Assembly (NCBI GenBank): GCA_002269645.1
Contig: NIVC01000390.1
Span: 124,001-188,000 of the forward strand
Length of the DNA stretch: 64,000 nucleotides
Source: Macrostomum lignano
Lineage: Eukaryota
Direction: 5' to 3'
Shown piece by piece: positions 17,502-55,180 of this stretch. Below the pieces are notes generated by a model. It worked only from the letters and a program-made list of their open reading frames with translations. It was not told the DNA's origin and made no database searches. Numbering within the stretch: position 1 is the stretch's first letter; each line of letters opens with the position of its first letter. The position numbers and the translations under genes are program-made.

Positions 17502-18199
17502 CAAGGACGACTTAAGTAGAAGGACGGGAAACCTCGTTTCTTAGAAAAGTTTTGAAGGCACTTTTTCCCGAAAAAATACACTACGGAGATAGGAAGTTTT
17601 CATTTTTTCAGCACAAAAATTGTTATTGCGTTTGATAGGAGGCAGATCCACTGTTCATATTTTGATATGTTGTGCCTTTTTTATTGCTCTATCGATATTT
17701 TTAAAGCTTTTCGTTCAGGAAATTAGGATTCTATGTTAATTTTTTATTCTTCGTATATTTTCGCGTGTCTTGTGCTTGAAATACATTAGAATGCCACGGC
17801 TCGGCTCTTTGGTTTTATGAGTCTATTTTATCATTCTTACCCGACTGTGTAGCAAATATTTGTAACAGAGATGATAAAATAGGTTCATAAAACCAAATAT
17901 TGGAGCTGTGTCATGCATTTTTGTGATTTTTAGATTCAGGAAATATACGTAGAATCAAAAATTAACATAGAATCCTAGTTTTCTGAACGAAAAGCTTTAT
18001 AAATATCGATAGAGCAATAAAAAAGGCACAACATATCAAAAGATGAACACTGGATCTGCCTCCTATCAAACGCAATAACAATTTTTGTGCTGAAAAAATG
18101 AAAACTTCCTATCTCCGTAGTGTATTTTTTCGGGAAAAAGTGCCTTCAAAACTTTTCTACGAAACGAGGTTTCCCATCCTTCTACTTAAGTCGTCCTTG
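17502..18199. mobile_element. Foldback non-autonomous DNA transposon with about 260-bp TIRs, CAAGG termini and 8-bp TSD (P/Galileo-like or hAT)
   Basis: The arms are reverse complements (CAAGGACGACTTAAGTAGAAGGA...). Perfect TSD ATTCAATA at 17494-17501 and 18200-18207. Confidence 0.88.
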
Positions 18200-33665: not shown

Positions 33666-34531
33666 TGAGACAGGCATTAATAATAGCTCTAATACTTTTA
33701 AATTTTACTCGTTTTATGTTTGCCTTTCTTAGAAAAACCTTTATTCAAATCTGCGCGAAATATTTGTTTGAATGTTGTGGTTTGCAAAAATATTTCTGCA
33801 ATTATTATTTTGTTTAAACTATAACGAATTTTGGGTATAAATAGACACGCTGAGCAGACTTGAGGAAGCAACCGTTTGCTGCCTCTCGGTTTTCGATAAG
33901 CAAATTTAGTTCGTTCTAAATATTGAAATCGCTTAAAGACTTAATCATTTCTTAGAGTATAAGAACCCCAATTGGGAGTATCAGAAACCGCTACAAGCGA
34001 GAAACCGCCTCAGGGCAGTAAATTGTAAATTCGCCTCAGGGCAGGAGAACCGCCTCATAACGAGAGAAGATCGCCTCAGGGCAGAGAAAGAGCATAAGCT
34101 GTGACCCTCTGATCCAGGGAACGCCCAGGACTGAGAGAATAATATTAGGGGAAGCATAGGAATAGAATAGACAGTGCTATTAGACCGCTCAGGCTAGAAA
34201 GTACAATAGAAGTACATACGCTACCAATAGAAGTACATACGCTACCGATAGAAGTACATGCGCTACCAGTAGAAAGACAATTAATAACCAGTAGAATTAT
34301 TAAGGAGAAATAGCTTTATTACAACTTTGGGTGGCATTTAGGATTCTCAGTGTACAGGGAAGAGCACTGTGACAACTTGGTTACAGCGGTAGGATTTTGT
34401 ATTGTACGGGAAACCCCTAGCACAACTTGGTGACATAACGGTGGAATTCTTATAGAGAGCCAAAAGGCCTGTAACAACTTTGGTGGCAGCTAGTAAGGCT
34501 AGCAAAAGGAATAATTAAGAGCCCTACGACA
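33666..34531 (+). repeat. Element A 5' LTR
   Basis: TG..CA ends, preceded by TAAG; TATA box GGTATAAATAG near 33835; followed by the PBS. Confidence 0.9.
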
Positions 34532-34536
34532 GCTTT

Positions 34537-34547
34537 TGGTGGCAGCG
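34537..34547 (+). promoter_or_regulatory. Element A primer-binding site, 11-nt match to the tRNA-Leu(AAG/TAG) 3' end
   Basis: TGGTGGCAGCG lies 5 nt after the LTR end. Confidence 0.8.
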
Positions 34548-34661
34548 TAAAGGATCAGAGAAACGGCGCGAATTAGATCAGAGAAACGGCGAGATTTAGA
34601 TCAGAGAAACGGCAAAAACCTTAGAAGACTAGAGAAATAGCAGAACCTGACAAGATCAGAG

Positions 34662-35687
34662 ATGGCCAACGCAAATGATGCGATTGCGATGCTAGCTGAA
34701 GAGCTAAGAAACAGGTTAGAGTTAGGACCACAAAGGCATGTGAAAATTCAGAAATTCACGCCAGGTCAAGATATTAGGATCTGGTTGACTGCCTTCGACC
34801 AGCGCTGTGAAGCTGAGGGTATCGAAGAGGATAACCGGAAGCAAGAGCTTCTCGCGAACCTCGACCTGGCTACTGCATTCGCAGCAGTTCAGCGTTTGAA
34901 CCTCCCAGATGATCTGGAGTACGAAGAATTTAAAGAAAGACTTGTAGAACGCTTTGGCAGAATTGGCAGTTCAGCAGAGTTTAGGGAAGAATTTAGAGGC
35001 CGAATGCAAGGCAGAAATGAGTTAGTAGAATCGTACACCGATTGTCTAATTGAGCTAGCTTCGCGAGCCTTCCCAAACATGACTGTGGAACAGCGGGAAG
35101 AGGAGATCGTGGAACAGTTCATCAAGGGTGTGAGAGTTCCACCTGAAACCCGCGAGAAACTGATCTTCGCTCAGCCAGCTAATCTGCAGGAAGCCAGAAG
35201 AATGCTGAGGAGAATGGAAGCAGCCTGGAACATGTCACGTAGGAATTCAGGCATGAGAGTAGCTAAGAGCGAGGAAGAACAAGAACAGCAGAGGAAGGCT
35301 GAACAAGAAAGACTGGAAGAGATCATTAGGAAGCAGAAGTTCGAGATTGAACAGCAGAAGAGAGCTTTGCAGGAGCTAAGAGAGGAGAAGATGCAGAATA
35401 ATCAGCAGCAGTTTTCGCAAAATTATTCGTACGCTCAGGCAGCCAGGCAGTATCCACAGAGATACCAGCCCCAGCAGCCGCAGCCCGTTCCGCCACAGTA
35501 TGGCAATGGAGCGCAGGCGCGACAGCAAATGTTCGCCCGGCAGCAGCACCCAAACCAGGGTCAGCCGAGACAACAGTCGCAGACTTGCTATAACTGCGGG
35601 AAGATTGGCCACATTGCAAAGCAGTGCAGGAGTGCCAAGCAGAACGCTCCGCAGATGCAGAACCGCTCGAATAACCAGGGAAACTGA
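34662..35687 (+). CDS. gag: Element A Gag with CCHC zinc knuckle
   Basis: CYNCGKIGHIAKQC; the ORF ends in slippery site GGGAAAC-TGA. Confidence 0.93.
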   Translation: MANANDAIAMLAEELRNRLELGPQRHVKIQKFTPGQDIRIWLTAFDQRCEAEGIEEDNRKQELLANLDLATAFAAVQRLNLPDDLEYEEFKERLVERFGRIGSSAEFREEFRGRMQGRNELVESYTDCLIELASRAFPNMTVEQREEEIVEQFIKGVRVPPETREKLIFAQPANLQEARRMLRRMEAAWNMSRRNSGMRVAKSEEEQEQQRKAEQERLEEIIRKQKFEIEQQKRALQELREEKMQNNQQQFSQNYSYAQAARQYPQRYQPQQPQPVPPQYGNGAQARQQMFARQQHPNQGQPRQQSQTCYNCGKIGHIAKQCRSAKQNAPQMQNRSNNQGN

Positions 35688-38600
35688 GAAGCGAGGGCCG
35701 AATAACGAGGCCACGTCCCTCTAGCGAAATCCAGAGCAAAATTCAGGCCTCTGAATTTGTAAATAATGCATACAAAGTTAATAAGCAGTACAAGTACAAA
35801 TCATGCGAAAATTATAATAAGTTTAGAAAACCCAACAAAAAACATGCGAATGCACATACAGTACCGAATGTAAATACTACGCGTGCACCTGATTGCTTAC
35901 CCAAGAAAAGTACTCCGAAGCCAGAAGAGTACGTCAAGCTGAATGAAAGTGCAGAAGAAGAGACAAGTTTAGATGCCGGCACAGAGAAGAAAGGCCGAGA
36001 AGCAGTCATTGACGGAAAGATCCGCAAGCAGAATATTCGCTTTCTGTTAGACACAGGAGCCGGTCGTAACTTTCTAAGTAAAAGTACTTGGAGAAGAGTA
36101 TGTAGAGAACAAGAGATCAGGCCATCTGATCAAAGAGTGACCACATTCGATGGATCGATTGTGCGAATCGAAGGAGAAGTGACAATAAAGATAATGTTCG
36201 GAGAAGTAGAAATTGTGACCGACTTCCTGCTGTGCAACCATGAGTGTGATGATATCCTAGGAATGGATTTCTTTATGAACTTTTGCAAGAGTATGAGTTT
36301 TGACAAAGGAATGATGATTTTAAAAACTGGAGTTTGCATTCCGATGCAGTTTACTAAATTGCCGGTACGAGTGTGCCGAGTCTACTGTCACGACAAGGTA
36401 GTTGTGCCAGCTAATAGTGCTTTAAGAATACCAGTCAAACTAGCTAAACGAGCTGAAATGAACTTCGGTACGCCAATGATGATTGAGACCACCAAAGGAC
36501 ATATCTCAGTAAAAGATGACACACTGGATATGGTTCCAACCTTATTAACGATGAGTAATGGAACTGGTGTGGTAGAAGTGATCAATAGGCAGAATAACGA
36601 CGTAGTGATTAGGAAATCAGCAATGGTAGGCATTGCCAAACCATTAAAAGCCGAAGAACTGACGTACTTCGTTACCAAGAATGACACCGGACAAGTTAAA
36701 TCCGCGAAATGCGCTGAAACTGCTGATACTGATGAATGGATTCAGGAGATTAACATCTCAGATGAGCTATCATCAGAGCAGAAAGAAAAGGTAGTCGAGC
36801 TGCTGAAAGAGAATAGGGAAGCATTCTCGCAGACAAGCCAGGAGATGGGCCTCACTCATCTAGTGACCCACGAAATCTCGCTGAAGGATACGACGCCAGT
36901 CAGAATACCTACTCGCAGAATACCACCACATCTGCAGAAGCAAGTAGACGAACAGTTAGACGATATGCTCGCTAAAAATTTAATAAGGCCGTGCTATAGC
37001 ACTTATTCGACGCCATTAGTAATAGTGCCTAAGAAAGATGGAACTATTAGGATTGTCAGCGATTTCAGAGTCTTGAACTCTCGAGTTAACTACTATCCGT
37101 ATCCGTTGCCGAATATTCAGGAAACTTTCTCTCATCTAACGGGAAGTCAATATTTCAGTAGTTTAGACTTAAATTCAGGTTATTGGCAGGTACCAATTAA
37201 GGAAGAGGATAAATTCATGACAGCATTTTCGACTTTGACTAGGGGACAGTTCGAGTATCAGGTCATGGCGCAGGGACTATCTAATGCACCTGGAACATTC
37301 CAGAGACTAATGAACCTAGTATTGATGGGGATTCAACATAAATTCGCCATGTCGTACATTGACGACATAGTAACTTACTCAACGAAATTTGAGGATCACC
37401 TGGATCACCTACGAGAAGTGTTCCAGAGACTAGTAACAGCCGGATTAAAATTAAGGCCGAAGAAATGTAATCTATTTCAAAAAGAGCTTAAATATCTAGG
37501 ACACATAGTTGGTAGAGAAGGAATTAAGACAGATCCAGCTAAGATAGAAGCAATTCAGTCATGGCCGACGCCTAAGGACGTTAAAGAATTAAGAAGCTTC
37601 CTAGGTCTATGTAACTATTACTGTAGGTTCGTGAAGAATTACGCGGAAGCAGCGCACCCGCTCTTCCAGGCTCCAGCTAACTAAGAAGGGAATTCAGAAT
37701 TTTAGGGAGAAATGGACTAAGAGTCATGATGAAGCCTTTGCGCTACTAAAGCAGAAGATGACATCAACAGAAGTTTTAGCATACCCAGAGTTCACTGACA
37801 ATGAAGAAGTTCGAATGGTGCTTGACACCGACGCGAGTGATGACAGGATTGGGGCCTGCTTAGGTCAGATACAATCCGATGGAGTTGAAAGGCCCATCGC
37901 GTACTTTAGCAGAGCCATGAAGGAATCAGAAAAGAGGTATCCAATCACAAGAAAAGAATTGCTAGCATTAGTTGACGGAATGAAACACTTCCGATTCTAT
38001 CTTATCGGAAAGAGATTCCTGGCAAGAACAGATCATCGCGCTATCCTATGGCTACTTCGCCAGACTGAAGCGCAGGGAATCCTCGGTAGATGGATTGAGA
38101 GATTAAGTGAGTTTCAGTATGACATTGAACACCGCAGCGGTGCTAAACACACCAATGCAGACGGACTATCCAGACGACCCGCAGAAAGATTAGAAGATAA
38201 TCAGGAGACTAAGGCAGAAAAGTGCACTAAAGCTGAGATAGGTCCAGTACTTCCTACCGTTACGGTAAACCGAAGTCAGACCAATATCTCAAGCTGTAAG
38301 CACCAGAGCTGTCAGACTGATCCAATTAGAGAAGAAGTAGAAGACGATGAAGAGTACGAAGATGCAAGAGAATATTTCGAAGATGAAGAAGAAGAGTATG
38401 AGGACGCCAGCGATTACTTCGCTGATGATGAAGAAGTGTATGAGGATGCGGAAGAAAACGTTAGTGAGACCGCTTGTCGGAAACTCCTAACCGACTATCT
38501 CTTCGTCCCGCTTAAGAAGGAGCAGCTGACATCAGCTCAGCGTGACGACCCTTCTATGAGGACGCTGATAGCCTGGAAGGAGCAGAGTATCCGAGAGCCG

Positions 38601-40208
38601 AAATTACCAAAGGATGCAACTAGAGAGTTGAAGCAGATGTTAAAGTTCTATAAGCAGATGAAGCTAGAAGACGAGTTATTGACCATAGACGAAGACGGGA
38701 CACAGAAGGTCGTGTTGCCAGAGAACATAGAGAAAAAAGTATTCCGAGAGTTGCATGACAGTCCTCTCTCAGGTCACCTAGGTCGTGATAAAACACTGCA
38801 ACATGTGCGCGATCGATTTTGGCGACCAGGACTAGCAACTGCAGTAGAGAAGTATATTTCGGAATGTATTCCTTGTTTAGAGAGTAAGGCAGGAAATAAG
38901 GTGAAGGCGCCAGTGCAGTCCTTTCCAATATGCGAACCGTTTCATAGGATCCATATTGACCTGATTGGGCCGATCTCAAAAGAGAGTCGAAGAGGTCATC
39001 GCTACGTACTAACAGTAGTAGATAGCACTACTCGGTTCCCGTTTGCGTTCCCAGTGCGAAATCAGAAATCGGATACAGTGATTAAGATCATACAAGAAAG
39101 AATCTTTAGCGAATACGGACAATGCCAGTGGATCCACACTGACAATGGCAAGACATTCGTCAGCCGTCAGTTCCAAGCATTTTGTAGGATGTATGGCATC
39201 AAGCATACATGCACCACACCGTATCACGCACAAAGTAACGGACTAGTCGAAAGATTCAATAAACAAATAAAGTCAATAGTAACTTGTCTAGTAGAGAAAG
39301 ATCATTCCGACTGGGATTTGCTAATTCCCGCAGCTCTGGTAGCTGTGCGCACTAGTGTGAACCAGACCACCGGATTCACGCCGCACTACCTGCTATTTGG
39401 TAGGGAGGCAGATCTTAGGATAGACAGTATTATTCGAAGGCCAAAGCAGTATCACGATTATCCGAGCTATGTGCTAAACCATGCTGAAAGGCTCGAAGAA
39501 GCACAGAAACTCGTGCAGAAGAAGCTAGAGAAGGTAAAGGACCGTAGAGAGGAGGACAATGCTGAGAACAAGCCACCGAAGCATGTACCGGTTGGATGCC
39601 TCGCATTGATTAACAATCCGCAATTACACAGTGAAGAAAGCCATAAATTTCACCGCAAGAAAAGAGCAGCATTCAGAGTCCTTGCGAGACTTTCCGAAAC
39701 AGTATTTCGAGTACAGCGAGAAATAGACGGAGTAAGGATTGGCGAGAAGATGCTCGTACATCGAAACAACCTCACTCCAGTACCCAACTCGCAAATAGAT
39801 TTGCTGAATGAACCAAATAAAGAGACGGAACCTACAAATAGGGGAAGGCAGAGAGAACAACAGAAAAAGAGAGAGCCGAAAAATAAGGGAAGGCAACAAA
39901 TTAGTAAGAAAAATCATTTAGAGCCAATAATAGAAACTGACAGTTCGGAAGACGAAAGAATTCAGTGGAGAGCAAGAGAGATCGAGCCAATTGAGGAAGA
40001 AGTTGAGCAAGAGGAAATTGAGCAGAATGAGATAGAAGATGAGTCAACAGACAGTGAAAGAACTGAGTTAGCTGAGGAAGATGACGCATTAGAGATAGGT
40101 GAGAATGAAAGAGCCGAACAAAGACATCAATATAATTTGAGACCCCGAGAGAACTCAGTCGCAACAGGCTTTGTTCCCCGGAGGCGATATTCTCATTACC
40201 GAAAGTAA
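35678..40208 (+). pseudogene. pol: Element A Pol (-1 frame): protease, RT, RNase H, integrase; broken by a 7-bp insertion at 37670-37676
   Basis: The -1 frame is open from GGGAAAC through LLDTGAG and YIDD. Comparison with B shows an extra GCTCCAG in HPLFQ|LTKKG. RNase H DTDAS and integrase HHCC plus HIDLIGP/TDNG/VERFN motifs are in the second frame. Confidence 0.92.
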
Positions 40209-40605
40209 TGAAGCCGAATCCATGTAAAAATGTGTAAATAGACTCAATATAAAACTCATAAAAAGTAAAAATCATAAAATTTATAAAAATACAAAAATAT
40301 TAAATTTGCATATACAGTATTAAATAAAAATGTTATGCGCATTACTAACAGTAGAGTATAGAGAATTGTGCAGGTATTGTTCGAAACTCGTTCCGCATAA
40401 AAATCCTAGCAACGCTTAGTAACGGTGTGAGCCAATGAGCGAGCTCGTTAGAAATTTGCTAAACCCCCTCTCGTGCGAACACGAAGATGCGGTCCAGTTT
40501 TTTCAGATATACAATTGAACTCCCTGCAGCTCCATAGACCCGTCGATCACACCTCTCCAAGTCAATCTTGAGTTAATACCGCAAGAATATATATTGCGAG
40601 CTAGA

Positions 40606-41643
40606 ATGGACGACGACTTAGATAATTTCTTAAAAGATTTGCTGGACGACTCCATGGAGGAATTAGCCGTCGCCGCCGCAGCAGACCAGCCAGCTGAACA
40701 GCCAGCTGAGCCTCCAGCGCAGCCTCCAGCGCCGCCAGTTCGACCTCCAGACCAGCCGGCTGAGCAGCCAGCTGAGCAGCCAGCCGAGCCGCCAGCTGAG
40801 TCGCCAGTACCATCAGCTCGGCCGCCAGCTTCATCAGCAAATCAGCCTGCAGCGACGTCCGCGCCATCAACCAGCCGATCGGCGCCTGACATTGAGGAGG
40901 CGCCATTGCGAGCTCCGACGAGACCAAGAGCCCTGTCAGGAACAGGCAAGCGACCGCCAGCCGCTGAACAATCATCAATTCCAGCCAAGAGGGCCGCTCT
41001 TCTGGATGCTCAAGCAAAAGCGCCAATCAAGTCTTTGGTCGTAAGACCATGCGCCGGAGAAGAGCGGCGCACCCTTCAGCTGGCCGCGCCTCCACAGCAG
41101 TCAGCAATGAGACGTCAGCCGAGACGTCCACCACAGCCGCCGCGCCATTCGTCGCCAAGACGTCTGCCGCAGCCGTCGAACCAGCCGCAGCCGCCGAGTC
41201 GGCCGCCACAGCAGCAGCAGCCGCCTCCGCCACATCAGCCAGCAACACCCAGGCAGCCACTGCAGCCTGTGCCTAATCCGCCGCTACAGCCAAGGCGAGA
41301 GTACCATGAAACGGCGCTAGCCCTTATCGACATGCACGGCGTTACGCTCGAACGAGTTGTGCACGGCATCAGGGTTTATCTGGAAAGGATAGCCCACCTG
41401 CGCCTCGACCAGGCGTTGCCACAGCGGGCTTACCTGTGGCCAAGCCTGAGGCAGCTGAGAACCCGACTTTCGCGAGAGGAAGCCGTCGCTCTGCTGCGAT
41501 ACGCCATCGACCGATTTCGAGACGATCTGGATGCCAGCCGACAGCCAATTCAGAGACAGCTTGTCAACATTGAGGTGAGATGGGTTTTCACCCAGCTCGG
41601 ATGGCTCGAGTACAGAGACCTCCCGCGAAATTGCTACTTCTAA
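40606..41643 (+). CDS. Element A ORF3, 345-aa non-env accessory protein
   Basis: ATG at 40606; homologous to ORF3 of element B in three separate blocks. Confidence 0.85.
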   Translation: MDDDLDNFLKDLLDDSMEELAVAAAADQPAEQPAEPPAQPPAPPVRPPDQPAEQPAEQPAEPPAESPVPSARPPASSANQPAATSAPSTSRSAPDIEEAPLRAPTRPRALSGTGKRPPAAEQSSIPAKRAALLDAQAKAPIKSLVVRPCAGEERRTLQLAAPPQQSAMRRQPRRPPQPPRHSSPRRLPQPSNQPQPPSRPPQQQQPPPPHQPATPRQPLQPVPNPPLQPRREYHETALALIDMHGVTLERVVHGIRVYLERIAHLRLDQALPQRAYLWPSLRQLRTRLSREEAVALLRYAIDRFRDDLDASRQPIQRQLVNIEVRWVFTQLGWLEYRDLPRNCYF

Positions 41644-43735
41644 ATGACAAGGGTTACTCTGAATCGAACATTTGCAAAAGTACTGATATTATTTTTGTTT
41701 TTGCTTTATTACTAGCTTAGTAGTATTTGTAGCATTTAGTAGCTAAATTCTTCTTTCAATTATGCTTATAGGAAATTATTACTAGCTTACATTTTTTATA
41801 TTTTTCGTTACCTGTATTGCCTTTTTTGCCTTTTTTGTCTTTTAGAGTAGTTATACATTAACAGATTCTTGAATTGAATGCTATATTTCTAGATATAATT
41901 TTAATTTCCTCTAAATAAAATACAACCAATTAAAATGCAACACTGCAAAGGCAGCAGCAATGGCAAGGCCTAATATTAATATAGCTTAAAGTATAGCTCA
42001 AGACACTTCCCTCACAGTCAAAACACAAGTGGGCCTAACTTTGTAATGTGATGTTAGACCTTTGACAATAAAGAAGCAGAAATAGACCTAAAAATAATAA
42101 ATAATATTGGCAATAATTAATAGATTTAATTATAGGCCCCTAGGCCTAATCAATGCAATTATATAATAATATTAATTAATAATTATTGTTGCAAATATTA
42201 GACTACTTTTAGGTAGGCCTTTGCACATCAGCACATGGCCTAAATCCTAATTATAAGTATAAATAGGCTGTAGTATACTTTACTAATAGCCTAGTATGGC
42301 CGTGTAGGAGGGGTAATTAAGCTAAGTTGGGAATCCTACAATTGCCCCCAAGTTGTGGTAGTGCTCTAAGGTTAAAAACTTTATCCTAATAGCTGACACC
42401 AAGTTGTTGTAGGTAATTCTTATGCTTATTCATAATTTCACTGCTGCTACCAAGTTGTACTGGGGTGAAATTTGCTATAATTCTAGAATTTCATAAGATT
42501 AGCCATCAGATTTGTTATAAACTACTAAAATATGGTGTCACGGAATTAAGATTATGGGCTTTCACATAAGCATGGATCGCCCTGGTAGTGCACAGTGCCC
42601 GAGCGGCAAGACACTGGTTAGCTAGGGGAGAGAGGGTGACTAAGTCCTAAAGCAGTGCCCTTCAATGGATCAAGGTTGCCCGAATGCCCGGTGAATTTCA
42701 GTTTCCTCTTATGGATTTGCTCTTGTCATATACAACTTTCCATTGGCTGTTCAGTTCAAATGGTTCTATTGGGATATTTCTCCCTCTCCAATGGGCTCTC
42801 TATGCCTTTACTGTTCGTGGTTCCGCTATTGGTTTTTAGACTGATCGTCTTAAGCTTTTGGTAATTTCTACCTAGCCAATGAGCATTTGCTCTTTATTCT
42901 TGACAAATAAGGAAGGCTTAAGTAAAATTCGCTTTTTTTGTTTGTTAGGCAGATAGCGTTGAACCAAAAACTCGGTTGCCTCTCTGGGCGCTGAATTCAC
43001 GTCTATTTATACTAACCAAAAAGAGGGGGAGGGGGAGGAAGAACGTATTCAAACAAATATCTACCAAAAATGCAGTCACTAACAAAAATGGCGGGGATTC
43101 AAAATAATCCCTTTCTCACTAGGTCTATTATAGGCCTACTATAATAATGGTATTGATAATTGATAATAATTGATAATAATAAACTGATAATAATATATAT
43201 AATAAATTATAATAAATAATAAATAATATATAAATTGATAATAATATAAAATGTAATTATACTCCTTAATTTTTTGGCCCTATTGGAAATATAGAGAGCT
43301 TGCGTACACAGCAGCCATCCACCCAGTGTTTTAATTGCATGCACAGTAGCCAGCAGATTGGCAAATAGTGAATTGCAAATTGGACCTTTTCCCTCAAATC
43401 TGCACTTTGTTACTTATTGAACTTTTTAAATAATTTATTACTTGTTTTATCCCATGTTACCCATGTATAATGCAATCTCAAATTAAGATGCAGCTGTTGT
43501 GCAAGCAATTAAAACACTGGGTGGACGGCTATTGTGCATGTAAGCTCTTTGTTTTAAATCAGTGTTAACCCTATTCATTAGAGCAAAAATTTAAGTTTAA
43601 GTATATAGATAATTAGATCCTTGACATTTAGCTACACAATATTATATTAGGCCTATAGGAACATATTTTCATTGTTTATTAGCTTTATCTAGGCTTAACT
43701 ATTTTTATTAGCTTTCTTATTTTTTTTAATATAAG

Positions 43736-44601
43736 TGAGACAGGCATTAATAATAGCTCTAATACTTTTAAATTTTACTCGTTTTATGTTTGCCTTTCTT
43801 AGAAAAACCTTTATTCAAATCTGCGCGAAATATTTGTTTGAATGTTGTGGTTTGCAAAAATATTTCTGCAATTATTATTTTGTTTAAACTATAACGAATT
43901 TTGGGTATAAATAGACACGCTGAGCAGACTTGAGGAAGCAACCGTTTGCTGCCTCTCGGTTTTCGATAAGCAAATTTAGTTCGTTCTAAATATTGAAATC
44001 GCTTAAAGACTTAATCATTTCTTAGAGTATAAGAACCCCAATTGGGAGTATCAGAAACCGCTACAAGCGAGAAACCGCCTCAGGGCAGTAAATTGTAAAT
44101 TCGCCTCAGGGCAGGAGAACCGCCTCATAACGAGAGAAGATCGCCTCAGGGCAGAGAAAGAGCATAAGCTGTGACCCTCTGATCCAGGGAACGCCCAGGA
44201 CTGAGAGAATAATATTAGGGGAAGCATAGGAATAGAATAGACAGTGCTATTAGACCGCTCAGGCTAGAAAGTACAATAGAAGTACATACGCTACCAATAG
44301 AAGTACATACGCTACCGATAGAAGTACATGCGCTACCAGTAGAAAGACAATTAATAACCAGTAGAATTATTAAGGAGAAATAGCTTTATTACAACTTTGG
44401 GTGGCATTTAGGATTCTCAGTGTACAGGGAAGAGCACTGTGACAACTTGGTTACAGCGGTAGGATTTTGTATTGTACGGGAAACCCCTAGCACAACTTGG
44501 TGACATAACGGTGGAATTCTTATAGAGAGCCAAAAGGCCTGTAACAACTTTGGTGGCAGCTAGTAAGGCTAGCAAAAGGAATAATTAAGAGCCCTACGAC
44601 A
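43736..44601 (+). repeat. Element A 3' LTR, flanked by TAAG on both sides
   Basis: Copy of 33666-34531. Confidence 0.9.
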
Positions 44602-46292: not shown

Positions 46293-47124
46293 TGTGACAG
46301 GCCTTTTGGCTCTGTCTTTCTAAACTTCTAACTATTAGTGTTTATTAAATATCCTACGAGCTGCCACCAAAGTTGTGGTAGGGGTATTCCCGTACGGTAC
46401 AAAATCCTACCGCTGTAACCAAAGTTGTGACAAGGCTTACTTCTGTCCCTACAAATTATCCCTCTATTGCCACCAAGTTGTAACAGGGGTTATTTCTGTT
46501 TGCCAACTACAGTTATCCTGATTATACTTGTTTTTACTCCCTAACTATTTCTTAGAATTTCATTTAAATATTTCTGGTAGCGTTCTTAGTAGCGTTTCTG
46601 GTAGCGTTCTGGTAGCTTATGGCCTGCTTTCTGGTAGCGTTCTGGTAGCTTATGGCCTGAGCGGTCTAGTACTGATATATGTATTAGTGAATAGTCCTAA
46701 TCGGGCGTTCACCGAGACTAGAGGGTCACGGCGCCTCTCTTGGTATATCTCCAAGAATTAGTCCCAATTCCCTTCTCTTAGCAAATTTCTTAGAATCGTT
46801 TCACAGGTTTTGCAAATAAATAAGTCGCTATTTAGCTCAAAGACTTTGAAATGGTTTAGATTGAACTGCTTATTCTGTTCGCAATTATTTGCTCACGAGT
46901 AAAAGACAGTTAGAGTATATTTGTCGCGAAACCGCTCCTATATATAGTGATTTTCCCCACATACAATTAAAACAAAAAAATAATTCTCCAATTTATTTCG
47001 CGCATTAAAACAAACTATTATTTGGCGTTCGCGTAGATTCAGTTTCTAAGAAAGATTCGAATATACAGTTATTACATTGAAAGAACATTCGAGTATACTA
47101 TGATAAAGGCATAGCACTAGTACA
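46293..47124 (-). repeat. Element B 3' LTR
   Basis: TGTACTA...TGTCACA on the minus strand. Confidence 0.93.
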
Positions 47125-47410: not shown

Positions 47411-48286
47411 TCAGATAAACATGCAGGGCTCCGGGAGGTCGCGATAATAGGGCCAGCCGACTTGAGCGAAAAACCATCGGTACTCTTCGTCGAGGACCGT
47501 CAGCGCTGGCGGCGGGTTGGCTCTTATAGCTCGCTGGAGGCGATAGGCGACGTCCTGGAGAACAGCGACAGCTTCCTGGTAACTGAATTGATCCCTCAGA
47601 AACTTCAGGTGTGTCCAAATTTGCGAGCATTGGGGGTAGCGCTGTCGGCTGTCGGATCGGTGGTACGCTACTTTCAGTGCGTATTGCTCAATGTGGAAGC
47701 GTAGCTTTTCCACCTCTGCTCCGCGAGTCTCCACAAGTTCTCGGACGATGCGATGAAAATCTCTCTGCGAATTCGATTGCTGCTGGCTCGGCTGTAGTGC
47801 TGATGGCTGGCTAGACTGCTGCGCTGATTGCAGGCTCGGCTGCAGCGCTGACTGCTGCGCTGATTGCAGGCTCGGCTGCGACGCTGGCTGCTGAGCTGGC
47901 GGTGTCGCAGCTGTCGATTTCTTCTGCCGTGGTGCCGGGGTCTTTCTCGATGATGGGGCAGCTGGCGGTGACACCAACTGCTGCGTTCGGCTTGATGTCG
48001 ACGATCCTGGCGTGGCCTTGACAACATAGGAGCGCACGGGCGCAGCTGCCTGTGCTGCCACCAGGGCGGCGCGCTTCTGCTCGGGGCCTTCGACCCTCAT
48101 TTGGCGGCAAGGCGATGAAGCTGGCGATGATGTTCTTGGCCGTTTGCTGGATACACCAGGCGCCTTTGGACGTGTTGCACATCGAAGCGGTGCCTCATTT
48201 TCATCGGTGTTGGGCGCTGGCTGGGGCTCCATATCGTCTGACAGATTGCCAATTAACTCGTCCAAGATATCAATAGAGTTGTTCAT
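47411..48286 (-). CDS. Element B ORF3, 291-aa non-env accessory protein
   Basis: Open ORF downstream of pol, homologous to A ORF3; TATAAATA about 85 bp upstream. Confidence 0.88.
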   Translation of the reverse strand: MNNSIDILDELIGNLSDDMEPQPAPNTDENEAPLRCATRPKAPGVSSKRPRTSSPASSPCRQMRVEGPEQKRAALVAAQAAAPVRSYVVKATPGSSTSSRTQQLVSPPAAPSSRKTPAPRQKKSTAATPPAQQPASQPSLQSAQQSALQPSLQSAQQSSQPSALQPSQQQSNSQRDFHRIVRELVETRGAEVEKLRFHIEQYALKVAYHRSDSRQRYPQCSQIWTHLKFLRDQFSYQEAVAVLQDVAYRLQRAIRANPPPALTVLDEEYRWFFAQVGWPYYRDLPEPCMFI

Positions 48287-48685
48287 TTTGATTTCTCTGC
48301 GAATGGCTCTTAGAATAGAAAGGAAGCTAGCAGTGAGCTATGGGATCTGTGGGGCCTGCGGGTGCTCGTATTTATAGGCTGGCGGGCCGAAAAACTGGAC
48401 CTCTTCGAAGCACTCCCCTCGCGCGTGGGGCGGGGCATGCCAGATTTGACAGATTTGACAACTAAATTTTTATGGATTTTCTATTTCTTTTTATAACTTT
48501 TTTATTTTTTGATAGATTTTCTTGAGTAAAGTATCAAATTAAAGATCGCATTTTGTAGATTAATATGGTATTTACAGATTCGCTCTATGTACAATATGTT
48601 AAATTTTATAAGCAGATAAGTAATTCTAATACGGAATTTTAACTATTTAACACTGTTTCTTATAGGAAATTGCTTACGTCATGAT

Positions 48686-51600
48686 TTAAGGTGCTAAATA
48701 TTTCGCGTAGCGCCTTCGGGGCACAAATCCTGTCGCGCCTTCTCTTTCTCTCCTTCGCTGAGTCATCCTAAAGTTATACCTATTCTCTGGCTGAACTCGT
48801 TCCTCCTCTAACTCTAATGCTCCTTCTTCTTCTTCTGATGGCTCATCTGAGTCAGTCGCTCTCTCTGTATTTTCACTGTTTACTTCTTCATTTCCTTCGT
48901 TTTCACTCTGCGAATTCGGATCTGCGAATACTCTCCATTGAATTCTGTTTTCTTCGTCTGAGCTTTCCTCCTCTAAAATTTGAACTTCTGGAATTCTAAC
49001 TTCTTTTTGTCTATGGCAAATTCTTTTCTTCGGCTTCGGCTGTTCTTTCTTCTTAGTTGGCACTGGTGCTGGTTTTAAATTATTATTAATTTCCTCTGGT
49101 AAATCAATTTCGGATTTCGGCACTGGAGTCAGATTATTTCTATGTACTAATAGTTTTTCTCCGCTCCTTTCGCCATTGATTTCTCTTTGCACACGGAAAA
49201 CTGTATCAGATATCTTCGCAAGAACTCGATAGGCTGCTCTTTTCTTTCGATGAAATTTGTGGCTCTCCTCTTGGTGAAGTTGAGGATTGTTGATGAGAGC
49301 GAGACAGCCAACTGGCACATTTTTAGGCTGACGATTCTCAACTTCGTCCTCTTGCCTTTTCTCTCGCACCTTTTCGAGTTGTCTTCGCACAATTGCTTTT
49401 GTCTCCTCGATTCTCTTCGCATGATCCAGCACATAGCTAGGATAGTCTCGGTATAGTCTTGGCCTTTTCACAATGCTATCTATTGGCAAATCTGCTTCTC
49501 TCCCGAATAGTAAGTAGTGTGGTGTGAACCCAGTAGTTTGATTAACACTGGTTCGCACAGCTACCAGAGCGGCGGGTATGAGCAGATCCCAATCTGAATG
49601 ATCCTTTTCAATCAAACAGGTTACAATCGATTTAATTTGCTTGTTAAATCTTTCGACAAGCCCGTTACTCTGAGCATGGTAAGGCGTAGTGCAAGTATGC
49701 TTAATGCCGTATAGGGTACAGAATGCCTGAAATTGGTGACTTACAAAAGTCTTGCCATTATCAGTGTGTATCCATTGACACTGGCCATACTCGCTGAAAA
49801 TTCTCTCTTGTATCGTTTTGATAACAGTCGCGGATTTCTGATTCCGAACCGGAAAAGCGAATGGGAACTTTGTTGTACTATCTACGACAGTAAGTACATA
49901 TCGGTGTCCTCTTCTGCTTTCCTTTGATATTGGACCGATCAAATCTATGTGCAGCCGATGAAATGGCTCGCATATCGGAAAGGTCTGCACCGGTGCTCGT
50001 ACTTTATTTCCGCTTTTACTTTCCAGACACGGGATGCATTCTGCGATGTACTTTTCAACTGCAGTCACTAACCCCGGCCTCCAGAATCGGTCTCGGACTC
50101 GCTGTAGCGTCTTGTCCCGACCTAGGTGGCCTGCTAGCGGACTGTCATGCAGCTCTTTGAATACATCTTTCTCAATCCTTTCTGGCAATACTACTTTCCG
50201 TTTACCGTCTTCACTGACTGTCAGCATTTCATCTTCGATTTTCATCTGCTCGTAGAACTTAACCATCTTCTTCAACTCTCCGGATGCATTTTCTGGCAAC
50301 TTCGGCTCACGCACTTTCTTCTGCTTCCAGTCCATCAAGGTTCTTATAGAAGGATCAGCATGCTGCGCTGAAGTCAGCTGCTCTTTCTTCAATGGAACCG
50401 AGAGGTAATCTGTCAGAAGCTTTCTGCACACTGTCTCTTCCTCTTCGAAATAGTCTCTTGCATCTTCATAGATGTCATCATTATCTTCGAACTGATCACT
50501 GGCATCTTCGTATTCATCATCTGCGAATTCGTCTTCGGAATCTGATTCATACTCTTCTGTGAAGTCGGTCTGGCAACTCTGATCTTTCACGCTGTTAGTC
50601 ACGACTTGTTTCACAGCGCTGGTTTCTATTGTCATCTTAGGAATTTCGGCCTCATTCTCTTTGATCTTAGCATCTTTCTGTTCAACTGGTGGTTCCGAGG
50701 GTCGCCGTGACAATCCATCTGCGTTGGAATGTTTGGCTCCACTGCGGTGCTCAATATCGTATTGAAACTCACTCAGTCTTTCAATCCATCTTCCGAGAAT
50801 TCCTTGGGCTTCGGTCTGGCGCAGTAACCATAGAATTGCCTTGTGGTCTGTGCGGGCCAGAAACCTTTTGCCAATTAGGTAAAATCGGAAGTGTTTCATG
50901 CCATCTACTAGCGCTAATAGCTCTTTTCTGGTAATCGGATATCTTTTCTCAGACTCTTTCATTGCTCTGCTGAAGTAAGCAATGGGTCTTTCAACCCCGT
51001 CCGATTGTATTTGACCCAGGCAAGCACCAATTCGGTCTTCGCTTGCGTCGGTGTCTAATACCATTCGAACATTCTCGTTCTCTGAGAATTCTGGGTACGC
51101 GAGTACTTCGGTCGATGTCATTCTCTGCTTCAACTGCTGGAAAGCCTCGTCATGTTTCTTGGTCCACTTTTCCCTAAAGTTTTGAATACCTTTCTTAGTT
51201 AATTGAAATAGCGGATGCGCTGCCTCTGCGTAATTCTTTACAAATCTGCAGTAGTAGTTACACAACCCCAAGAAGCTTCGCAGTTCTTTGACCTCTTTCG
51301 GCGTAGGCCATGACTGTATCGCTTCGATCTTAGCTGGGTCTGTTCTAATCCCTTCTCTTCCTACGATATGCCCTAAGTACTTTAGCTCTTTCTGAAACAA
51401 GTTGCACTTTTTTGGTCTTAATTTTAGTCCTGCTGAGATTAGTCTTTGAAATACTTCTTGCAGATGACCGAGATGATCTTCGAATTTCTCTGAGTATGTC
51501 ACAATATCATCTATGTACGACATTGCGAATTTGTGCTGTATTCCCATCAGCACCAAATTCATGAGTCTCTGGAATGTACCAGGAGCGTTAGACAAGCCCT

Positions 51601-53197
51601 GTGCCATGACCTGATATTCGAACTGGCCTCTGGTAAGGGTGGAAAAGGCTGTCATAAATTTGTGCTCCTCTTTGATAGGTACCTGCCAGTATCCAGAGTT
51701 TAAATCTAGACTACTGAAGTACTTGCTTCCAGATAACTGAGCGAAAGTCTCTTGTATGTTCGGTAATGGATATGGGTAATAGTTCACTCTCGAATTCAGG
51801 ACCCTGAAGTCACTGACGATTCTTATGGATCCATCCTTCTTAGGAACTATCACTAGCGGCGTCGAATAAGTACTATAGCACGGTCGGATCAGGTTCTTAG
51901 CAAGCATGTCGTCAAGTTGCTCATCTACTTGCTTTTGCAGATGTGGTGGAATTCTGCGTGTTGGAATCCTGACCGGTGTGGTATCTTTTAGAGATATTTC
52001 ATGAGTCACAAGATGGGTGAGACCCATGTCTTGGTTGGTCTGCGAAAATGCTTCCTTGTTCTTCTTTAGCAAATCGATCACTAGTCCTTTCTGTTCTGAT
52101 GTTAGCTCTTCTCCTAAATCGATCTCGTTTATCCAGCTGTACTCACTCTCTTCACTCTTCACTGTCCTAATTGTATCATCTGAACTGGCTTGACCTTTGC
52201 TGTTAATAGAGTAGGCCAGGCCTCCTGGCTTCAAGGGTTTGGCCACTCCAATCAGCGTAGATCTTGTCAGTCTGATATCGTCATTCTGTCGATTGATTAT
52301 TTCCACTACTCCTGTTCCATCGTTCATGGTCACTAGAGTAGGAATCATCTCTAAGGAATTTCTCTTCGTAGTCACTTGGCCTCCAATGGTGTCAATGACC
52401 ATTGGCGTTCCATAGTTGGCTTCTGATCCTTTAGTCATTCTAATTGGAATTCGAAGAGCGCTATTCGCTGGTATAGTCACGCTGTTATGGCTGTAGATTC
52501 GGCAAACCCGTACGGGTAATTTTGTAAACTGAATTGGGATGCAGGTTCCTTCTTTTAATACAAGCATTCCTCTGGAAAGGCTGATGCTGTCGCAGAAGTT
52601 CATGAAGAACTCCATCCCGAGTATGTCGTCACACTCGTGATTGCACAGCAGGAACTCTGTCTCAATCTCTATCTCTCCGAATCGTATTTTCGTTCTGACT
52701 TCTCCTTCAATTCGCACACTTGATCCGTCAAACGTAGTCACTCTTCGAGTAGTCAACTCAATTTCATCACTTCTGAACATCTTTTTCCAAGTACTCTTGC
52801 TTAGGAAATTATGTCCAGCTCCTGTGTCTAGCAAGAAGTAGACCTTTCGGTTTCTTAGCATTCCATTGACGACTGCTTCTCGTCCTTTTCTCTCCGTATC
52901 TTCTTCGAATTCTCTCTTCGAATGCTCATTCGGAATTACTGTACTTTGTACTTTATTATTCGGCCTACTGTGGCTAGCAGACGCATGACTAGGTGCAAGC
53001 GGCATATGTACACGAGGTGCAAAATTTTTATTTGGTTTTCTGTGAAATTTATTGAATTCGGCATGCGTTCTGCTGTTACTATACTGTCTGGCATTACTTC
53101 GATACGCATTATTTACAAATTCAGAGGCCTGAAATTCGCGATAATTGTTGCTAGAGGGACGTGGCCTCGCAAAGCGGCCCTCGCTACTCAGTTTCCC
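48686..53197 (-). CDS. pol: Element B Pol (PR-RT-RH-IN), translated by -1 frameshift from gag
   Basis: The -1 frame is open from GGGAAAC (53191-53197) into the 1439-aa ORF; LLDTGAG, YIDD, RNase H and integrase motifs are intact. Confidence 0.95.
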   Translation of the reverse strand, partial: GKLSSEGRFARPRPSSNNYREFQASEFVNNAYRSNARQYSNSRTHAEFNKFHRKPNKNFAPRVHMPLAPSHASASHSRPNNKVQSTVIPNEHSKREFEEDTERKGREAVVNGMLRNRKVYFLLDTGAGHNFLSKSTWKKMFRSDEIELTTRRVTTFDGSSVRIEGEVRTKIRFGEIEIETEFLLCNHECDDILGMEFFMNFCDSISLSRGMLVLKEGTCIPIQFTKLPVRVCRIYSHNSVTIPANSALRIPIRMTKGSEANYGTPMVIDTIGGQVTTKRNSLEMIPTLVTMNDGTGVVEIINRQNDDIRLTRSTLIGVAKPLKPGGLAYSINSKGQASSDDTIRTVKSEESEYSWINEIDLGEELTSEQKGLVIDLLKKNKEAFSQTNQDMGLTHLVTHEISLKDTTPVRIPTRRIPPHLQKQVDEQLDDMLAKNLIRPCYSTYSTPLVIVPKKDGSIRIVSDFRVLNSRVNYYPYPLPNIQETFAQLSGSKYFSSLDLNSGYWQVPIKEEHKFMTAFSTLTRGQFEYQVMAQGLSNAPGTFQRLMNLVLMGIQHKFAMSYIDDIVTYSEKFEDHLGHLQEVFQRLISAGLKLRPKKCNLFQKELKYLGHIVGREGIRTDPAKIEAIQSWPTPKEVKELRSFLGLCNYYCRFVKNYAEAAHPLFQLTKKGIQNFREKWTKKHDEAFQQLKQRMTSTEVLAYPEFSENENVRMVLDTDASEDRIGACLGQIQSDGVERPIAYFSRAMKESEKRYPITRKELLALVDGMKHFRFYLIGKRFLARTDHKAILWLLRQTEAQGILGRWIERLSEFQYDIEHRSGAKHSNADGLSRRPSEPPVEQKDAKIKENEAEIPKMTIETSAVKQVVTNSVKDQSCQTDFTEEYESDSEDEFADDEYEDASDQFEDNDDIYEDARDYFEEEETVCRKLLTDYLSVPLKKEQLTSAQHADPSIRTLMDWKQKKVREPKLPENASGELKKMVKFYEQMKIEDEMLTVSEDGKRKVVLPERIEKDVFKELHDSPLAGHLGRDKTLQRVRDRFWRPGLVTAVEKYIAECIPCLESKSGNKVRAPVQTFPICEPFHRLHIDLIGPISKESRRGHRYVLTVVDSTTKFPFAFPVRNQKSATVIKTIQERIFSEYGQCQWIHTDNGKTFVSHQFQAFCTLYGIKHTCTTPYHAQSNGLVERFNKQIKSIVTCLIEKDHSDWDLLIPAALVAVRTSVNQTTGFTPHYLLFGREADLPIDSIVKRPRLYRDYPSYVLDHAKRIEETKAIVRRQLEKVREKRQEDEVENRQPKNVPVGCLALINNPQLHQEESHKFHRKKRAAYRVLAKISDTVFRVQREINGERSGEKLLVHRNNLTPVPKSEIDLPEEINNNLKPAPVPTKKKEQPKPKKRICHRQKEVRIPEVQILEEESSDEENRIQWRVFADPNSQSENEGNEEVNSENTERATDSDEPSEEEEGALELEEERVQPENRYNFRMTQRRREREGATGFVPRRRYAKYLAP

Positions 53198-54192
53198 TGC
53201 TGCTTCTGGTAGTCCATCACTCGCTGACCGTTTGGCCTAGCGCTCTGGCAATTCCTCGCCATGTGGCCAAGCTTCCCGCAATTGTAGCAGGCTCGAGGCT
53301 GCTGCTGTTGCTGTGGCTGCCTGTTGAACTGAGGCTGACCGCGCCATACTGGCTGCTGCTGCTGCTGCTGCTGCGGCCGATATCTCGGCTGCTGCGGCGG
53401 TCCAGCGACCTGAGCGTACGTTTGATATTGATTCTGCGGATGATACTGCTGACGGCTAGCTCTCTTCTCTTCCATCAGCTCCTCAATCGCCTTCTTCTGT
53501 TGCTCTAACTCTGCTCTCTGCTTCTTGATGATGTCCTCAAGCTTCTCCTGATCTGCCTTCTGCTCACTCTCGCCTTCGCCTTTGGCCATTCTCATGTTGA
53601 AATTCTTGTGAGACATGTTCCACGCAGCCTCCATCCTTCTTAGCATTCTTCTAGCCTCTTGTAAATTGCCTGGCTGCGCAAAGATTAGCTTCTCACGGGT
53701 CTCTGACGGAATTCTGATTCCCTTGATGAATTGCTCAACAATTTCTTCTTCCCTTTGCTCAACCGTCATATTCGGAAATGCACGCGATGCCAGCTCGATC
53801 AAACAGTCTGCGAAAGTCTCTACAGGCTCATTTCTGCCTTGCATTCTTCCACGAAACTCCTCTCTGAATTCTGCGGAACTACCGATTCTTCCGAATCGCT
53901 CAATCAGTCGCTCTTTGAACTCTTCGTATTCAAGATCCTCGGGCAGATTTAGGCGCTGTACCGCTGCGAATGCAGTGGACAGGTCCAGATTAGCTAGCAA
54001 TTCCTGCTTCCTATGTTCCTCATCTATCCCTTCTACTTCACAGCGCTGATCGAAGGCTGTTAGCCAGATCCGAATGTCTTGCGTAGGTGTGAATTTCTGA
54101 ATCTTAACGTGTCTCATCGGCCCTATCTCTAGTCGGTTTCGCAATTCTTCTGCCAGCATGGCGATGGCATCATTAGCCTGATTCTGATTCAT
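53188..54192 (-). CDS. gag: Element B Gag with CCHC zinc knuckle
   Basis: CYNCGKLGHMARNC; highly similar to A Gag. Confidence 0.95.
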   Translation of the reverse strand: MNQNQANDAIAMLAEELRNRLEIGPMRHVKIQKFTPTQDIRIWLTAFDQRCEVEGIDEEHRKQELLANLDLSTAFAAVQRLNLPEDLEYEEFKERLIERFGRIGSSAEFREEFRGRMQGRNEPVETFADCLIELASRAFPNMTVEQREEEIVEQFIKGIRIPSETREKLIFAQPGNLQEARRMLRRMEAAWNMSHKNFNMRMAKGEGESEQKADQEKLEDIIKKQRAELEQQKKAIEELMEEKRASRQQYHPQNQYQTYAQVAGPPQQPRYRPQQQQQQQPVWRGQPQFNRQPQQQQQPRACYNCGKLGHMARNCQSARPNGQRVMDYQKQQGN

Positions 54193-54347: not shown

Positions 54348-55180
54348 TGTGACAGGCCTTTTGGCTCTGTCTTTCTAAACTTCTAACTATTAGTGTTTAT
54401 TAAATATCCTACGAGCTGCCACCAAAGTTGTGGTAGGGGTATTCCCGTACGGTACAAAATCCTACCGCTGTAACCAAAGTTGTGACAAGGCTTACTTCTG
54501 TCCCTACAAATTATCCCTCTATTGCCACCAAGTTGTAACAGGGGTTATTTCTGTTTGCCAACTACAGTTATCCTGATTATACTTGTTTTTACTCCCTAAC
54601 TATTTCTTAGAATTTCATTTAAATATTTCTGGGTAGCGTTCTTAGTAGCGTTTCTGGTAGCGTTCTGGTAGCTTATGGCCTGCTTTCTGGTAGCGTTCTG
54701 GTAGCTTATGGCCTGAGCGGTCTAGTACTGATATATGTATTAGTGAATAGTCCTAATCGGGCGTTCACCGAGACTAGAGGGTCACGGCGCCTCTCTTGGT
54801 ATATCTCCAAGAATTAGTCCCAATTCCCTTCTCTTAGCAAATTTCTTAGAATCGTTTCACAGGTTTTGCAAATAAATAAGTCGCTATTTAGCTCAAAGAC
54901 TTTGAAATGGTTTAGATTGAACTGCTTATTCTGTTCGCAATTATTTGCTCACGAGTAAAAGACAGTTAGAGTATATTTGTCGCGAAACCGCTCCTATATA
55001 TAGTGATTTTCCCCACATACAATTAAAACAAAAAAATAATTCTCCAATTTATTTCGCGCATTAAAACAAACTATTATTTGGCGTTCGCGTAGATTCAGTT
55101 TCTAAGAAAGATTCGAATATACAGTTATTACATTGAAAGAACATTCGAGTATACTATGATAAAGGCATAGCACTAGTACA
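54348..55180 (-). repeat. Element B 5' LTR
   Basis: Copy of 46293-47124; TATA box CACTATATATAGGAG. Confidence 0.93.

What the first reader, a model, noticed from the sequence alone, without database searches (positions are those of the whole stretch)
47411..48286. Conserved non-env ORF3 downstream of pol in both retrotransposons
Seen: both ORF3 proteins have an acidic N-terminus (MDDDLDNFLKDLLDDSME / MNNSIDILDELIGNLSDDME), a basic block (EAPLR..TRP.A.....KRP), KRAAL..AQA.AP..S.VV, a P/Q/S/A-rich linker and a helical C-terminal domain of about 115 aa ending E.RW.F.Q.GW..YRDLP..C.F. There is no signal peptide or TM segment, so it is not Env. Order and motifs are kept while the linker diverges, indicating purifying selection. 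Inference: a nuclear accessory factor (acidic activation-like patch, NLS-like KRP, folded domain) acting as transactivator or anti-silencing protein, possibly tied to the LTR arrays.
Basis: partly seen in the sequence, partly recalled or inferred. Interest (0 to 1): 0.72.

Follow-up and report, generated by a model that had tools for sequence, protein, structure and literature searches.

The report
Orphan accessory gene in flatworm retrotransposons
Two recently inserted jumping genes, probably from a flatworm, each carry a real third gene for a protein of no known family that is not a viral envelope and most likely acts in the nucleus to regulate the element, though its job is unproven.

Summary
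Two Ty3/gypsy elements whose gag-pol synonymous sites are saturated each keep an intact ORF3 after pol (291 and 345 aa; 32% identical, E 2e-28). Neither has a hydrophobic segment, so this is not Env. A profile search gave 7 hits: 5 are relatives (4 labelled Macrostomum lignano), 2 are TPR noise. The four distinct full-length members share an acidic helix and a basic NLS-like block. All end in a five-helix domain (pLDDT 84) with no family or fold match. ORF3 is under purifying selection but changes much faster than gag/pol (pN/pS 0.65 vs 0.14-0.19). New here: the 3' half of the pol-ORF3 spacer is conserved and looks like an internal promoter. Best reading (0.4): a nuclear transcriptional activator or anti-silencing adaptor, organised like foamy-virus Tas or maize Grande gene23. 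Function, localisation and expression of these copies are untested; no link to the PBS arrays was found. Extra ORFs in LTR retrotransposons are a known class. The scan noted such ORF3s in other genomes (10 findings by words, none by sequence). I found no description of this family.

The parts
47411..48286 (-). ORF3 of element B, 291 aa
   Evidence: other five frames closed
48239..48274 (-). ORF3B acidic amphipathic helix (residues 5-16)
   Evidence: helix in model, low confidence (pLDDT about 55); pattern in 4 of 4 full-length members
48023..48196 (-). ORF3B basic/motif block (residues 31-88): EAPLR..TRP, KRP, K[RK]AA helix, short V-rich motif; NLS-like by inference
47414..47770 (-). ORF3B C-terminal five-helix domain (residues 173-291), no known family or fold match
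48287..48685 (-). pol-ORF3 spacer of B (399 nt): AT-rich 5' half with AATAAA (48506); conserved 3' half with GC box (48435), 12-nt word shared with A (48401-48390) and TATA box (48376); candidate internal promoter
   Evidence: function inferred
40606..41643 (+). ORF3 of element A, 345 aa; C-terminal domain 41290-41640
40209..40605 (+). pol-ORF3 spacer of A (397 nt): AATAAA (40323), CCAAT (40432), shared 12-nt word (40491-40502), TATA-like word (40508)
   Evidence: function inferred
48686..53236 (-). pol of B, one open frame (PR-RT-RNaseH-IN), entered from gag probably by a -1 frameshift at GGGAAAC
   Evidence: frameshift inferred
53188..54192 (-). gag of B with one CCHC zinc knuckle
54348..55180 (-). 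5' LTR of B (833 bp, TG...CA), three PBS-like units inside, two more just downstream
46293..47124 (-). 3' LTR of B (99.88% identical to the 5' LTR), preceded by a polypurine tract; 4-bp target duplication ATCT
34662..35687 (+). gag of A
35675..40208 (+). pol of A, broken into two frames near 37635-37684
33666..34531 (+). 5' LTR of A (866 bp, TG...CA), four PBS-like units inside, one downstream
43736..44601 (+). second LTR of A (100% identical); 4-bp target duplication TAAG

Best explanation
ORF3 is an element-encoded nuclear regulator that promotes transcription of its own retrotransposon lineage. SHOWN: it is an intact, selected, lineage-restricted third gene with a disordered arm bearing short conserved motifs and one five-helix domain. 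INFERRED, step by step: (1) it is transcribed as its own mRNA from an internal promoter in the 3' half of the pol-ORF3 spacer, about 60-70 nt of leader with ORF3's ATG first; (2) the KRP...K[RK]AA block imports it into the nucleus; (3) the helical domain docks it on the element's DNA, chromatin or nascent RNA, directly or through a host protein; (4) the N-terminal acidic helix recruits a host co-activator or chromatin factor, so raising LTR transcription or lifting silencing. The logic is that of foamy-virus Tas (internal promoter, acidic activation domain, binding domain), reached independently.
For: Selection and intact frame despite saturated gag-pol synonymous sites. Five related clusters at 30-59% pairwise identity in the domain. 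Helix pattern [LI]D.[FL][LI]..L, EAPLR..TRP, KRP and K[RK]AA in 4 of 4 distinct full-length members; net charge of the first 30 residues -9 and -8. The hydrophobic spacing resembles acidic activator motifs (recalled, not tested). Full-length model: only these two short helices and the C-terminal domain are ordered. Spacer 3' half conserved (score 54, 0 of 500 shuffles reach it, maximum 53; shared 12-mer 1 of 1000) while the 5' half (231 of 500) and the ORF3-LTR region (280 of 500) are not. TATA-like word 98 and 90 nt before the ATG with no ATG in between. No GT[AG]AG donor at a shared position in leader or gag. Faster change than gag/pol fits a host-facing protein. Precedents: Grande gene23 (PMC7264820), Tor internal env promoter (PMC4402516), Tas (PMC3798896).
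Against: No functional, localisation or transcript-start data. The C-terminal domain is only weakly basic (K+R 17 vs D+E 15 in B; 19 vs 15 in A) and matches no DNA-binding fold. No word of 7 or more bases is shared by the conserved spacer block and both LTRs, whereas Tas binds both promoters. The spacer alignment score only just exceeds the shuffle maximum. One relative (P0004) is annotated with a 55-residue leader that matches A's spacer read in the ORF3 frame (E 2e-10). So its transcript starts upstream of the proposed TATA box, and the block could be a coding leader: in A and B that frame is closed by one stop and B has no ATG in it. Two relatives (P0005, P0006/P0011) are annotated as C-terminal domain only.
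Confidence: 0.4

Rival explanations
1. ORF3 works after transcription, like HIV Rev or Cer1 CERV: it binds the element's genomic RNA and licenses its export or protects it from premature 3' processing at the AATAAA in the pol-ORF3 spacer. The N-terminal helix would be an export signal and the basic block an import signal.
For: CERV is the one Ty3/gypsy accessory protein I found with a tested function; it is nuclear with candidate NLS and NES (PMC10309623). Both spacers have one AATAAA upstream of the conserved block. The R..HLR.DQ.LPQR stretch is the most conserved part of the domain.
Against: No shared canonical splice donor in leader or gag, so there may be no intron to retain. CERV comes from a spliced mRNA sharing exons with gag and has other domains. 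AATAAA is expected by chance in AT-rich DNA.
Confidence: 0.2
2. ORF3 is a protein adaptor outside transcription: it disables a host defence protein (PIWI/piRNA pathway or a restriction factor, Vif/Vpr-like) or helps the integration complex enter the nucleus or pick its target.
For: Several short linear motifs in a disordered arm; dN about 0.5-0.7 vs 0.13-0.18 for gag/pol; domain near neutral in charge. TE accessory proteins were predicted to have more host contacts than core enzymes (PMC13547354, passages).
Against: No partner identified; no degron or known suppressor family match; positive selection could not be tested with two DNA sequences.
Confidence: 0.2
3. ORF3 is a negative regulator (copy-number control or repressor) that restrains its own family.
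For: Same architecture fits a repressor; an independent promoter would let it be made while the LTR is off (inference).
Against: The conserved N-terminal helix is acidic, which is more typical of activators (recalled). Both insertions are recent (LTRs 99.9-100% identical).
Confidence: 0.1
4. ORF3 is a captured host gene fragment or an Env remnant with no current role for the element.
For: Genomic context of the five relatives was not seen; selection is much weaker than on gag/pol; two relatives are domain-only.
Against: No hydrophobic segment, 2-4 Cys; no host or viral family or fold; open frame cannot survive this divergence neutrally (0 of 3000); same position and spacer length in both elements.
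Confidence: 0.05

Closest known systems
Additional ORFs (aORF/ORF3) of LTR retrotransposons, especially maize Grande gene23 (review PMC7264820, parts 1-2 of 3 read)
   Same: Conserved extra gene between pol and the 3' LTR, no database match, own promoter and nuclear protein in gene23; regulatory role proposed.
   Different: gene23 is antisense and plant; this ORF3 is sense and animal. Promoter and nuclear location are shown for gene23, only inferred here. No homology found in the family searches; gene23 itself was not compared.
Foamy virus Tas/Bel1 (PMC3798896, passages)
   Same: 3' regulatory gene of 209-308 aa, poorly conserved, internal promoter, acidic activation domain plus binding domain.
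   Different: Retroviridae with env; internal promoter lies within env. No sequence or fold match was reported for ORF3. No shared response element found between spacer and LTRs.
CERV of C. elegans Cer1 (PMC10309623, abstract and section 9)
   Same: Non-Env nuclear accessory protein of an animal Ty3/gypsy element, folded domains joined by flexible linkers, no outside homology.
   Different: 517 aa, spliced mRNA sharing exons with gag, H/M/G domains with a GTPase-like fold and Cys loop; ORF3 is a stand-alone frame after pol with one helical domain.
Bdelloid rotifer LTR ORF3s (PMC5408684, passages) and Oikopleura Tor env (PMC4402516, passages)
   Same: [quoted passage not shown]
   Different: Those ORF3s are Env, transmembrane, coiled-coil, GDSL esterase or DEDDy exonuclease; this one is none of the enzyme or membrane types.
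VANC anti-silencing proteins of VANDAL DNA transposons (PMC13547354, passages)
   Same: Fast-evolving, lineage-specific accessory factor that counters silencing (the role proposed here).
   Different: DNA transposons of plants, derived from MAIN-like host proteins; no homology found to ORF3.

Membership tests
Ty3/gypsy LTR retrotransposon (carrier element) | LTR-PBS-gag-pol(PR-RT-RH-IN)-PPT-LTR with target duplication | tested here: met
   fully met for B. A has LTRs and TSD but a broken pol, and a flank copy where the PPT should be
Gmr1/Osvaldo clade | RT phylogeny groups with clade references | not tested
   Suggested only by a recalled RT signature; 40 such families exist in M. lignano (Table S1 of PMC12801592); no reference sequences on hand
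Env / env-like ORF3 | Signal peptide and transmembrane anchor | tested here: not met
   maximum 19-residue hydropathy 1.0, N-terminus net -8/-9; hydropathy scan only
Env / env-like ORF3 | Cys-rich glycosylated ectodomain or fusogen family match | tested here: not met
   2 and 4 Cys, 0 and 2 sequons; no Pfam match
Additional ORF (aORF) of LTR retrotransposons | [quoted passage not shown] | tested here: met
Additional ORF (aORF) of LTR retrotransposons | Present in most copies of the family | not testable with these tools
   no genome held
Additional ORF (aORF) of LTR retrotransposons | Transcribed | tested here: inconclusive
   four relatives' gene ids are in an RNA-seq-based annotation; no read evidence for the window's copies
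Foamy virus Tas | Sequence or fold homology | tested here: inconclusive
   not listed in Pfam or viral fold results; absence from a list does not exclude
Foamy virus Tas | Internal promoter | tested here: inconclusive
   conserved promoter-like block; no transcript start mapped
Foamy virus Tas | Sequence-specific DNA binding and transactivation | not testable with these tools
   needs bench assays
CERV | Spliced product sharing exons with gag; H, M and G domains | tested here: not met
   stand-alone ORF after pol, single all-helical domain
GDSL or DEDDy ORF3 of bdelloids | Enzyme family match and alpha/beta fold | tested here: not met
   no Pfam match; model is all-helical

The most novel reading that the evidence does not exclude
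These are 'complex' Ty3/gypsy retrotransposons with a foamy-virus-like two-promoter circuit: an internal promoter makes a dedicated transactivator or anti-silencing protein with an undescribed binding domain, which then switches on the LTR. My paper searches showed no tested trans-acting transcriptional activator of an animal LTR retrotransposon.
Probability: 0.25. Interest if true: 0.75.

Novelty: new member of a known kind. Interest (0 to 1): 0.45.

Why it matters
Most extra ORFs of LTR retrotransposons have no known job, and among the animal non-Env, non-enzyme cases I found only CERV with a tested function. If ORF3 is an activator or anti-silencing factor, retrotransposons evolved the regulatory layer of complex retroviruses independently. 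The likely host has transgenesis and RNAi, so the question can be tested directly. If it stays untested, it is one more orphan accessory gene, restricted so far to one host lineage.

Tried and rejected
Family and sequence searches with no useful hit: Pfam (best values are low-complexity noise), PHROGs, PDB sequences (19, best E 1.1; 65, best E 0.17), ESM Atlas by features and by structure (50, best TM 0.27). Word-based protein search with ORF3B found nothing; with alignments it returned only members already found, and both were crowded at about 8000 candidates, so they are weak evidence of absence. Viral contigs (45: 22 pattern matches, 0 confirmed) and metagenome contigs (76: 599 matches, 0 confirmed). 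Fold searches: Foldseek PDB and viral, 0 at E<=0.001; VIA-align best Z 7.8, rmsd 2.4 over 80 residues, to a cobalamin-cap-type helical bundle, within the background for helical bundles, so not taken as a match. Two TPR/CHAT proteins among the 7 profile hits (P0008, P0009; E about 1e-4) were dropped as repeat noise. P0007 is a chimeric gene model; only its 75-residue matching part was used. Homodimer prediction gave no verdict. Sequencing runs: 20 of 24 rows hold element B, all one organism; no RNA holder listed. Exact look-up: 0 of 6 window proteins in the collection. The four gene ids occur in no main text and not in the supplements of PMC12801592 or PMC5816591; supplements of PMC5946080 and PMC6371448 could not be read and may hold expression values. 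No three-unit heat-shock element in either LTR or spacer. An E2F-like octamer in both LTRs is not significant alone (25 and 17 of 300 shuffles). No tRNA gene in the window. JC-corrected dS is saturated for gag/pol, so pN/pS is reported instead of dN/dS (41).

Full report
Setting. The window holds two Ty3/gypsy LTR retrotransposons facing tail to tail among eukaryotic genes (formin, tubulin-ligase and RRM domains). Element B (minus strand, 55180-46293) is complete: 833-bp TG...CA LTRs 99.88% identical, 4-bp target duplication, PBS, gag with one zinc knuckle, one open pol frame (PR-RT-RH-IN), ORF3, polypurine tract. Element A (plus strand, 33666-44601) has identical 866-bp LTRs and its own 4-bp target duplication. 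Its pol is broken into two frames near 37635-37684, and a 1.9-kb copy of its upstream flank lies between ORF3 and the second LTR. Both insertions are therefore recent, yet the two families are old relative to each other: gag and pol are 74-80% identical in protein with saturated synonymous sites (pS 0.78-0.87).

ORF3B (291 aa) and ORF3A (345 aa) align at 32% identity, E 2e-28. The C-terminal domain and the basic block each beat all 2000 shuffles; the acidic N-terminus alone does not (233 of 2000). Neither protein has a hydrophobic segment. The other five frames are closed, and 0 of 3000 neutral simulations kept either frame open at the observed divergence. pN/pS is 0.65 (95% range 0.56-0.77) over ORF3, against 0.14-0.19 for gag and pol. 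By part it is 0.50 for the basic block, 0.76 (0.60-0.98) for the domain and 0.79 (0.61-1.05) for the poorly alignable linker. So ORF3 is constrained, but less so than gag-pol, and the two-sequence estimate is rough.

The family. A profile of the two C-terminal domains against 1.84 billion representatives gave 7 hits. Five are relatives (E 2e-33 to 3e-15); two are TPR proteins at E about 1e-4 and were dropped. Four of the five clusters are labelled Macrostomum lignano and one is an unnamed Logan cluster, so the host is probably M. lignano or a close relative (inference). Pairwise identity in the domain is 30-59% among 7 sequences. The 4 distinct full-length members all carry [LI]D.[FL][LI]..L, EAPLR..TRP, KRP and K[RK]AA (patterns derived from the same four). 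I could not see the DNA around the relatives. Only P0004 is tied to this element type, through its match to A's spacer. No member outside this group was found, though these searches are of limited depth.

Structure. The domain folds with confidence from two sequences (pLDDT 83.8, pTM 0.80, five helices). In the full-length model only residues 5-16 and 69-80 form short low-confidence helices before the domain; the rest is disordered. No family or fold match was found; the best structural Z of 7.8 is background for helical bundles, and this does not show that the fold is new. The best-conserved residues are Y202, R210, P218, Q219, L230 and the W..F...GW..Y..LP..C.F tail. Net charge is only slightly positive, which tempers a DNA-binding reading.

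How ORF3 may be expressed. The pol-ORF3 spacers are 397 and 399 nt. Their 5' halves are AT-rich, unrelated (231 of 500 shuffles reach the score) and each holds one AATAAA. Their 3' halves align (0 of 500 shuffles, though the maximum is only one point lower) and share a 12-nt word found nowhere else in the window (1 of 1000 shuffles). After that word comes a TATA-like word 98 (A) and 90 (B) nt before the ATG, with no ATG in between; before it lies a CCAAT (A) or a GC box (B). No canonical splice donor is shared by the two leaders or gag genes. This reads best as an internal promoter, as shown for Tor env in Oikopleura (PMC4402516, passages). Against it: the relative P0004 is annotated with a 55-residue leader that equals this block read in frame, so its transcript starts further upstream. 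In A and B that frame is closed by one stop and B has no start in it. SL trans-splicing is a third route, since 38.8% of genes in the M. lignano annotation are trans-spliced (PMC5730564, passages). Four relatives' gene ids stand in that RNA-seq-based annotation and are listed as 'Non-Specific' with no neoblast label (supplement rows of PMC7336406). This is indirect evidence that family members are transcribed; there is none for the window's own copies.

Mechanism. The anatomy (acidic amphipathic helix, basic import-like block, disordered linker, one folded domain, probable own promoter) matches a trans-acting nuclear regulator. I put 0.4 on a transcription-level activator or anti-silencing adaptor, 0.2 on a Rev/CERV-like RNA factor, 0.2 on a counter-defence or integration adaptor, 0.1 on a repressor, 0.05 on a passenger, and leave 0.05 unassigned. 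Only the existence, selection and domain layout are shown; every functional step is inferred, and the motif labels (activation helix, NLS) are recalled resemblances. A tie to the PBS arrays is unsupported: no shared word of 7 or more bases links the spacer block to both LTRs. The arrays look like repeated LTR-end/PBS duplications absorbed into the LTR, with one fresh duplicate still outside B's 5' LTR (inference).

Comparison and novelty. Extra ORFs between pol and the 3' LTR are an established class: plant aORFs including the nuclear, separately promoted Grande gene23 (PMC7264820), bdelloid ORF3s (PMC5408684, passages) and CERV (PMC10309623). It works most like Tas or gene23 by inference, but is not shown to be a member of any of these protein families. 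I found no description of this family in searches. The M. lignano LTR paper (PMC12801592; part 1 of 6, term search and Table S1) has no occurrence of 'ORF' or 'accessory'. The envelope survey PMC13524379 (passages) does not name Macrostomum. The earlier classification paper cited in PMC12801592 was not listed in my searches, and I have not seen it; it could mention this ORF. The scan's own notes list 10 findings of similar non-env ORF3s in other genomes, none alike in sequence and none on this genome; these are unchecked and only show that the class recurs. Verdict: a real, undescribed accessory protein family of a known kind; interest 0.45.

Noticed in passing
window 31767-33665 and 41837-43735: A 1.9-kb stretch upstream of A's 5' LTR is repeated (99.7% over flank plus LTR) between ORF3A and A's second LTR, where the polypurine tract should be. 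It could be a recombination product or an assembly join of two alleles.
   Followed up: partly
window 34322-34560 (+), 54535-54266 (-): Each LTR ends in 3-4 PBS-like units about 51-54 nt apart, with 1-2 more just outside; one unit is 89% identical between A and B although the LTRs are otherwise diverged. tRNA-Leu-like by recall, not tested.
   Followed up: partly
window about 32255-32390 (-): A third array of three PBS-like units at 51-nt spacing on the opposite strand in A's upstream flank, probably the end of another related LTR.
   Followed up: no
window 19172-19640: Sequence similar to the middle of B's LTR, with its 11-nt unit expanded into a tandem array, and a PBS-like word at 19718; possibly a solo or related LTR.
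   Followed up: no
LTR A positions 435-530, LTR B positions 396-470: Three short words conserved in order between the two diverged LTRs downstream of the TATA box; may mark an RNA structure in the R region. Not folded.
   Followed up: no
window 38349-38446 and the matching part of pol B: An acidic repeat-rich linker (E.YEDA..YF units) between RNase H and integrase in both pol proteins.
   Followed up: no
proteins P0006/P0011: 118-119-aa M. lignano gene models made of the ORF3 domain alone, lacking the conserved GW..Y..LP..C tail; could be truncated copies or a domesticated form.
   Followed up: no
window 20448-21377 (+): A 309-aa ORF with no Pfam match above cut-off and no exact match in the protein collection.
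   Followed up: no
window 17502-18199: Inverted repeat with 259-nt arms, 97% complementary, 180 nt apart; possibly a MITE or foldback element.
   Followed up: no
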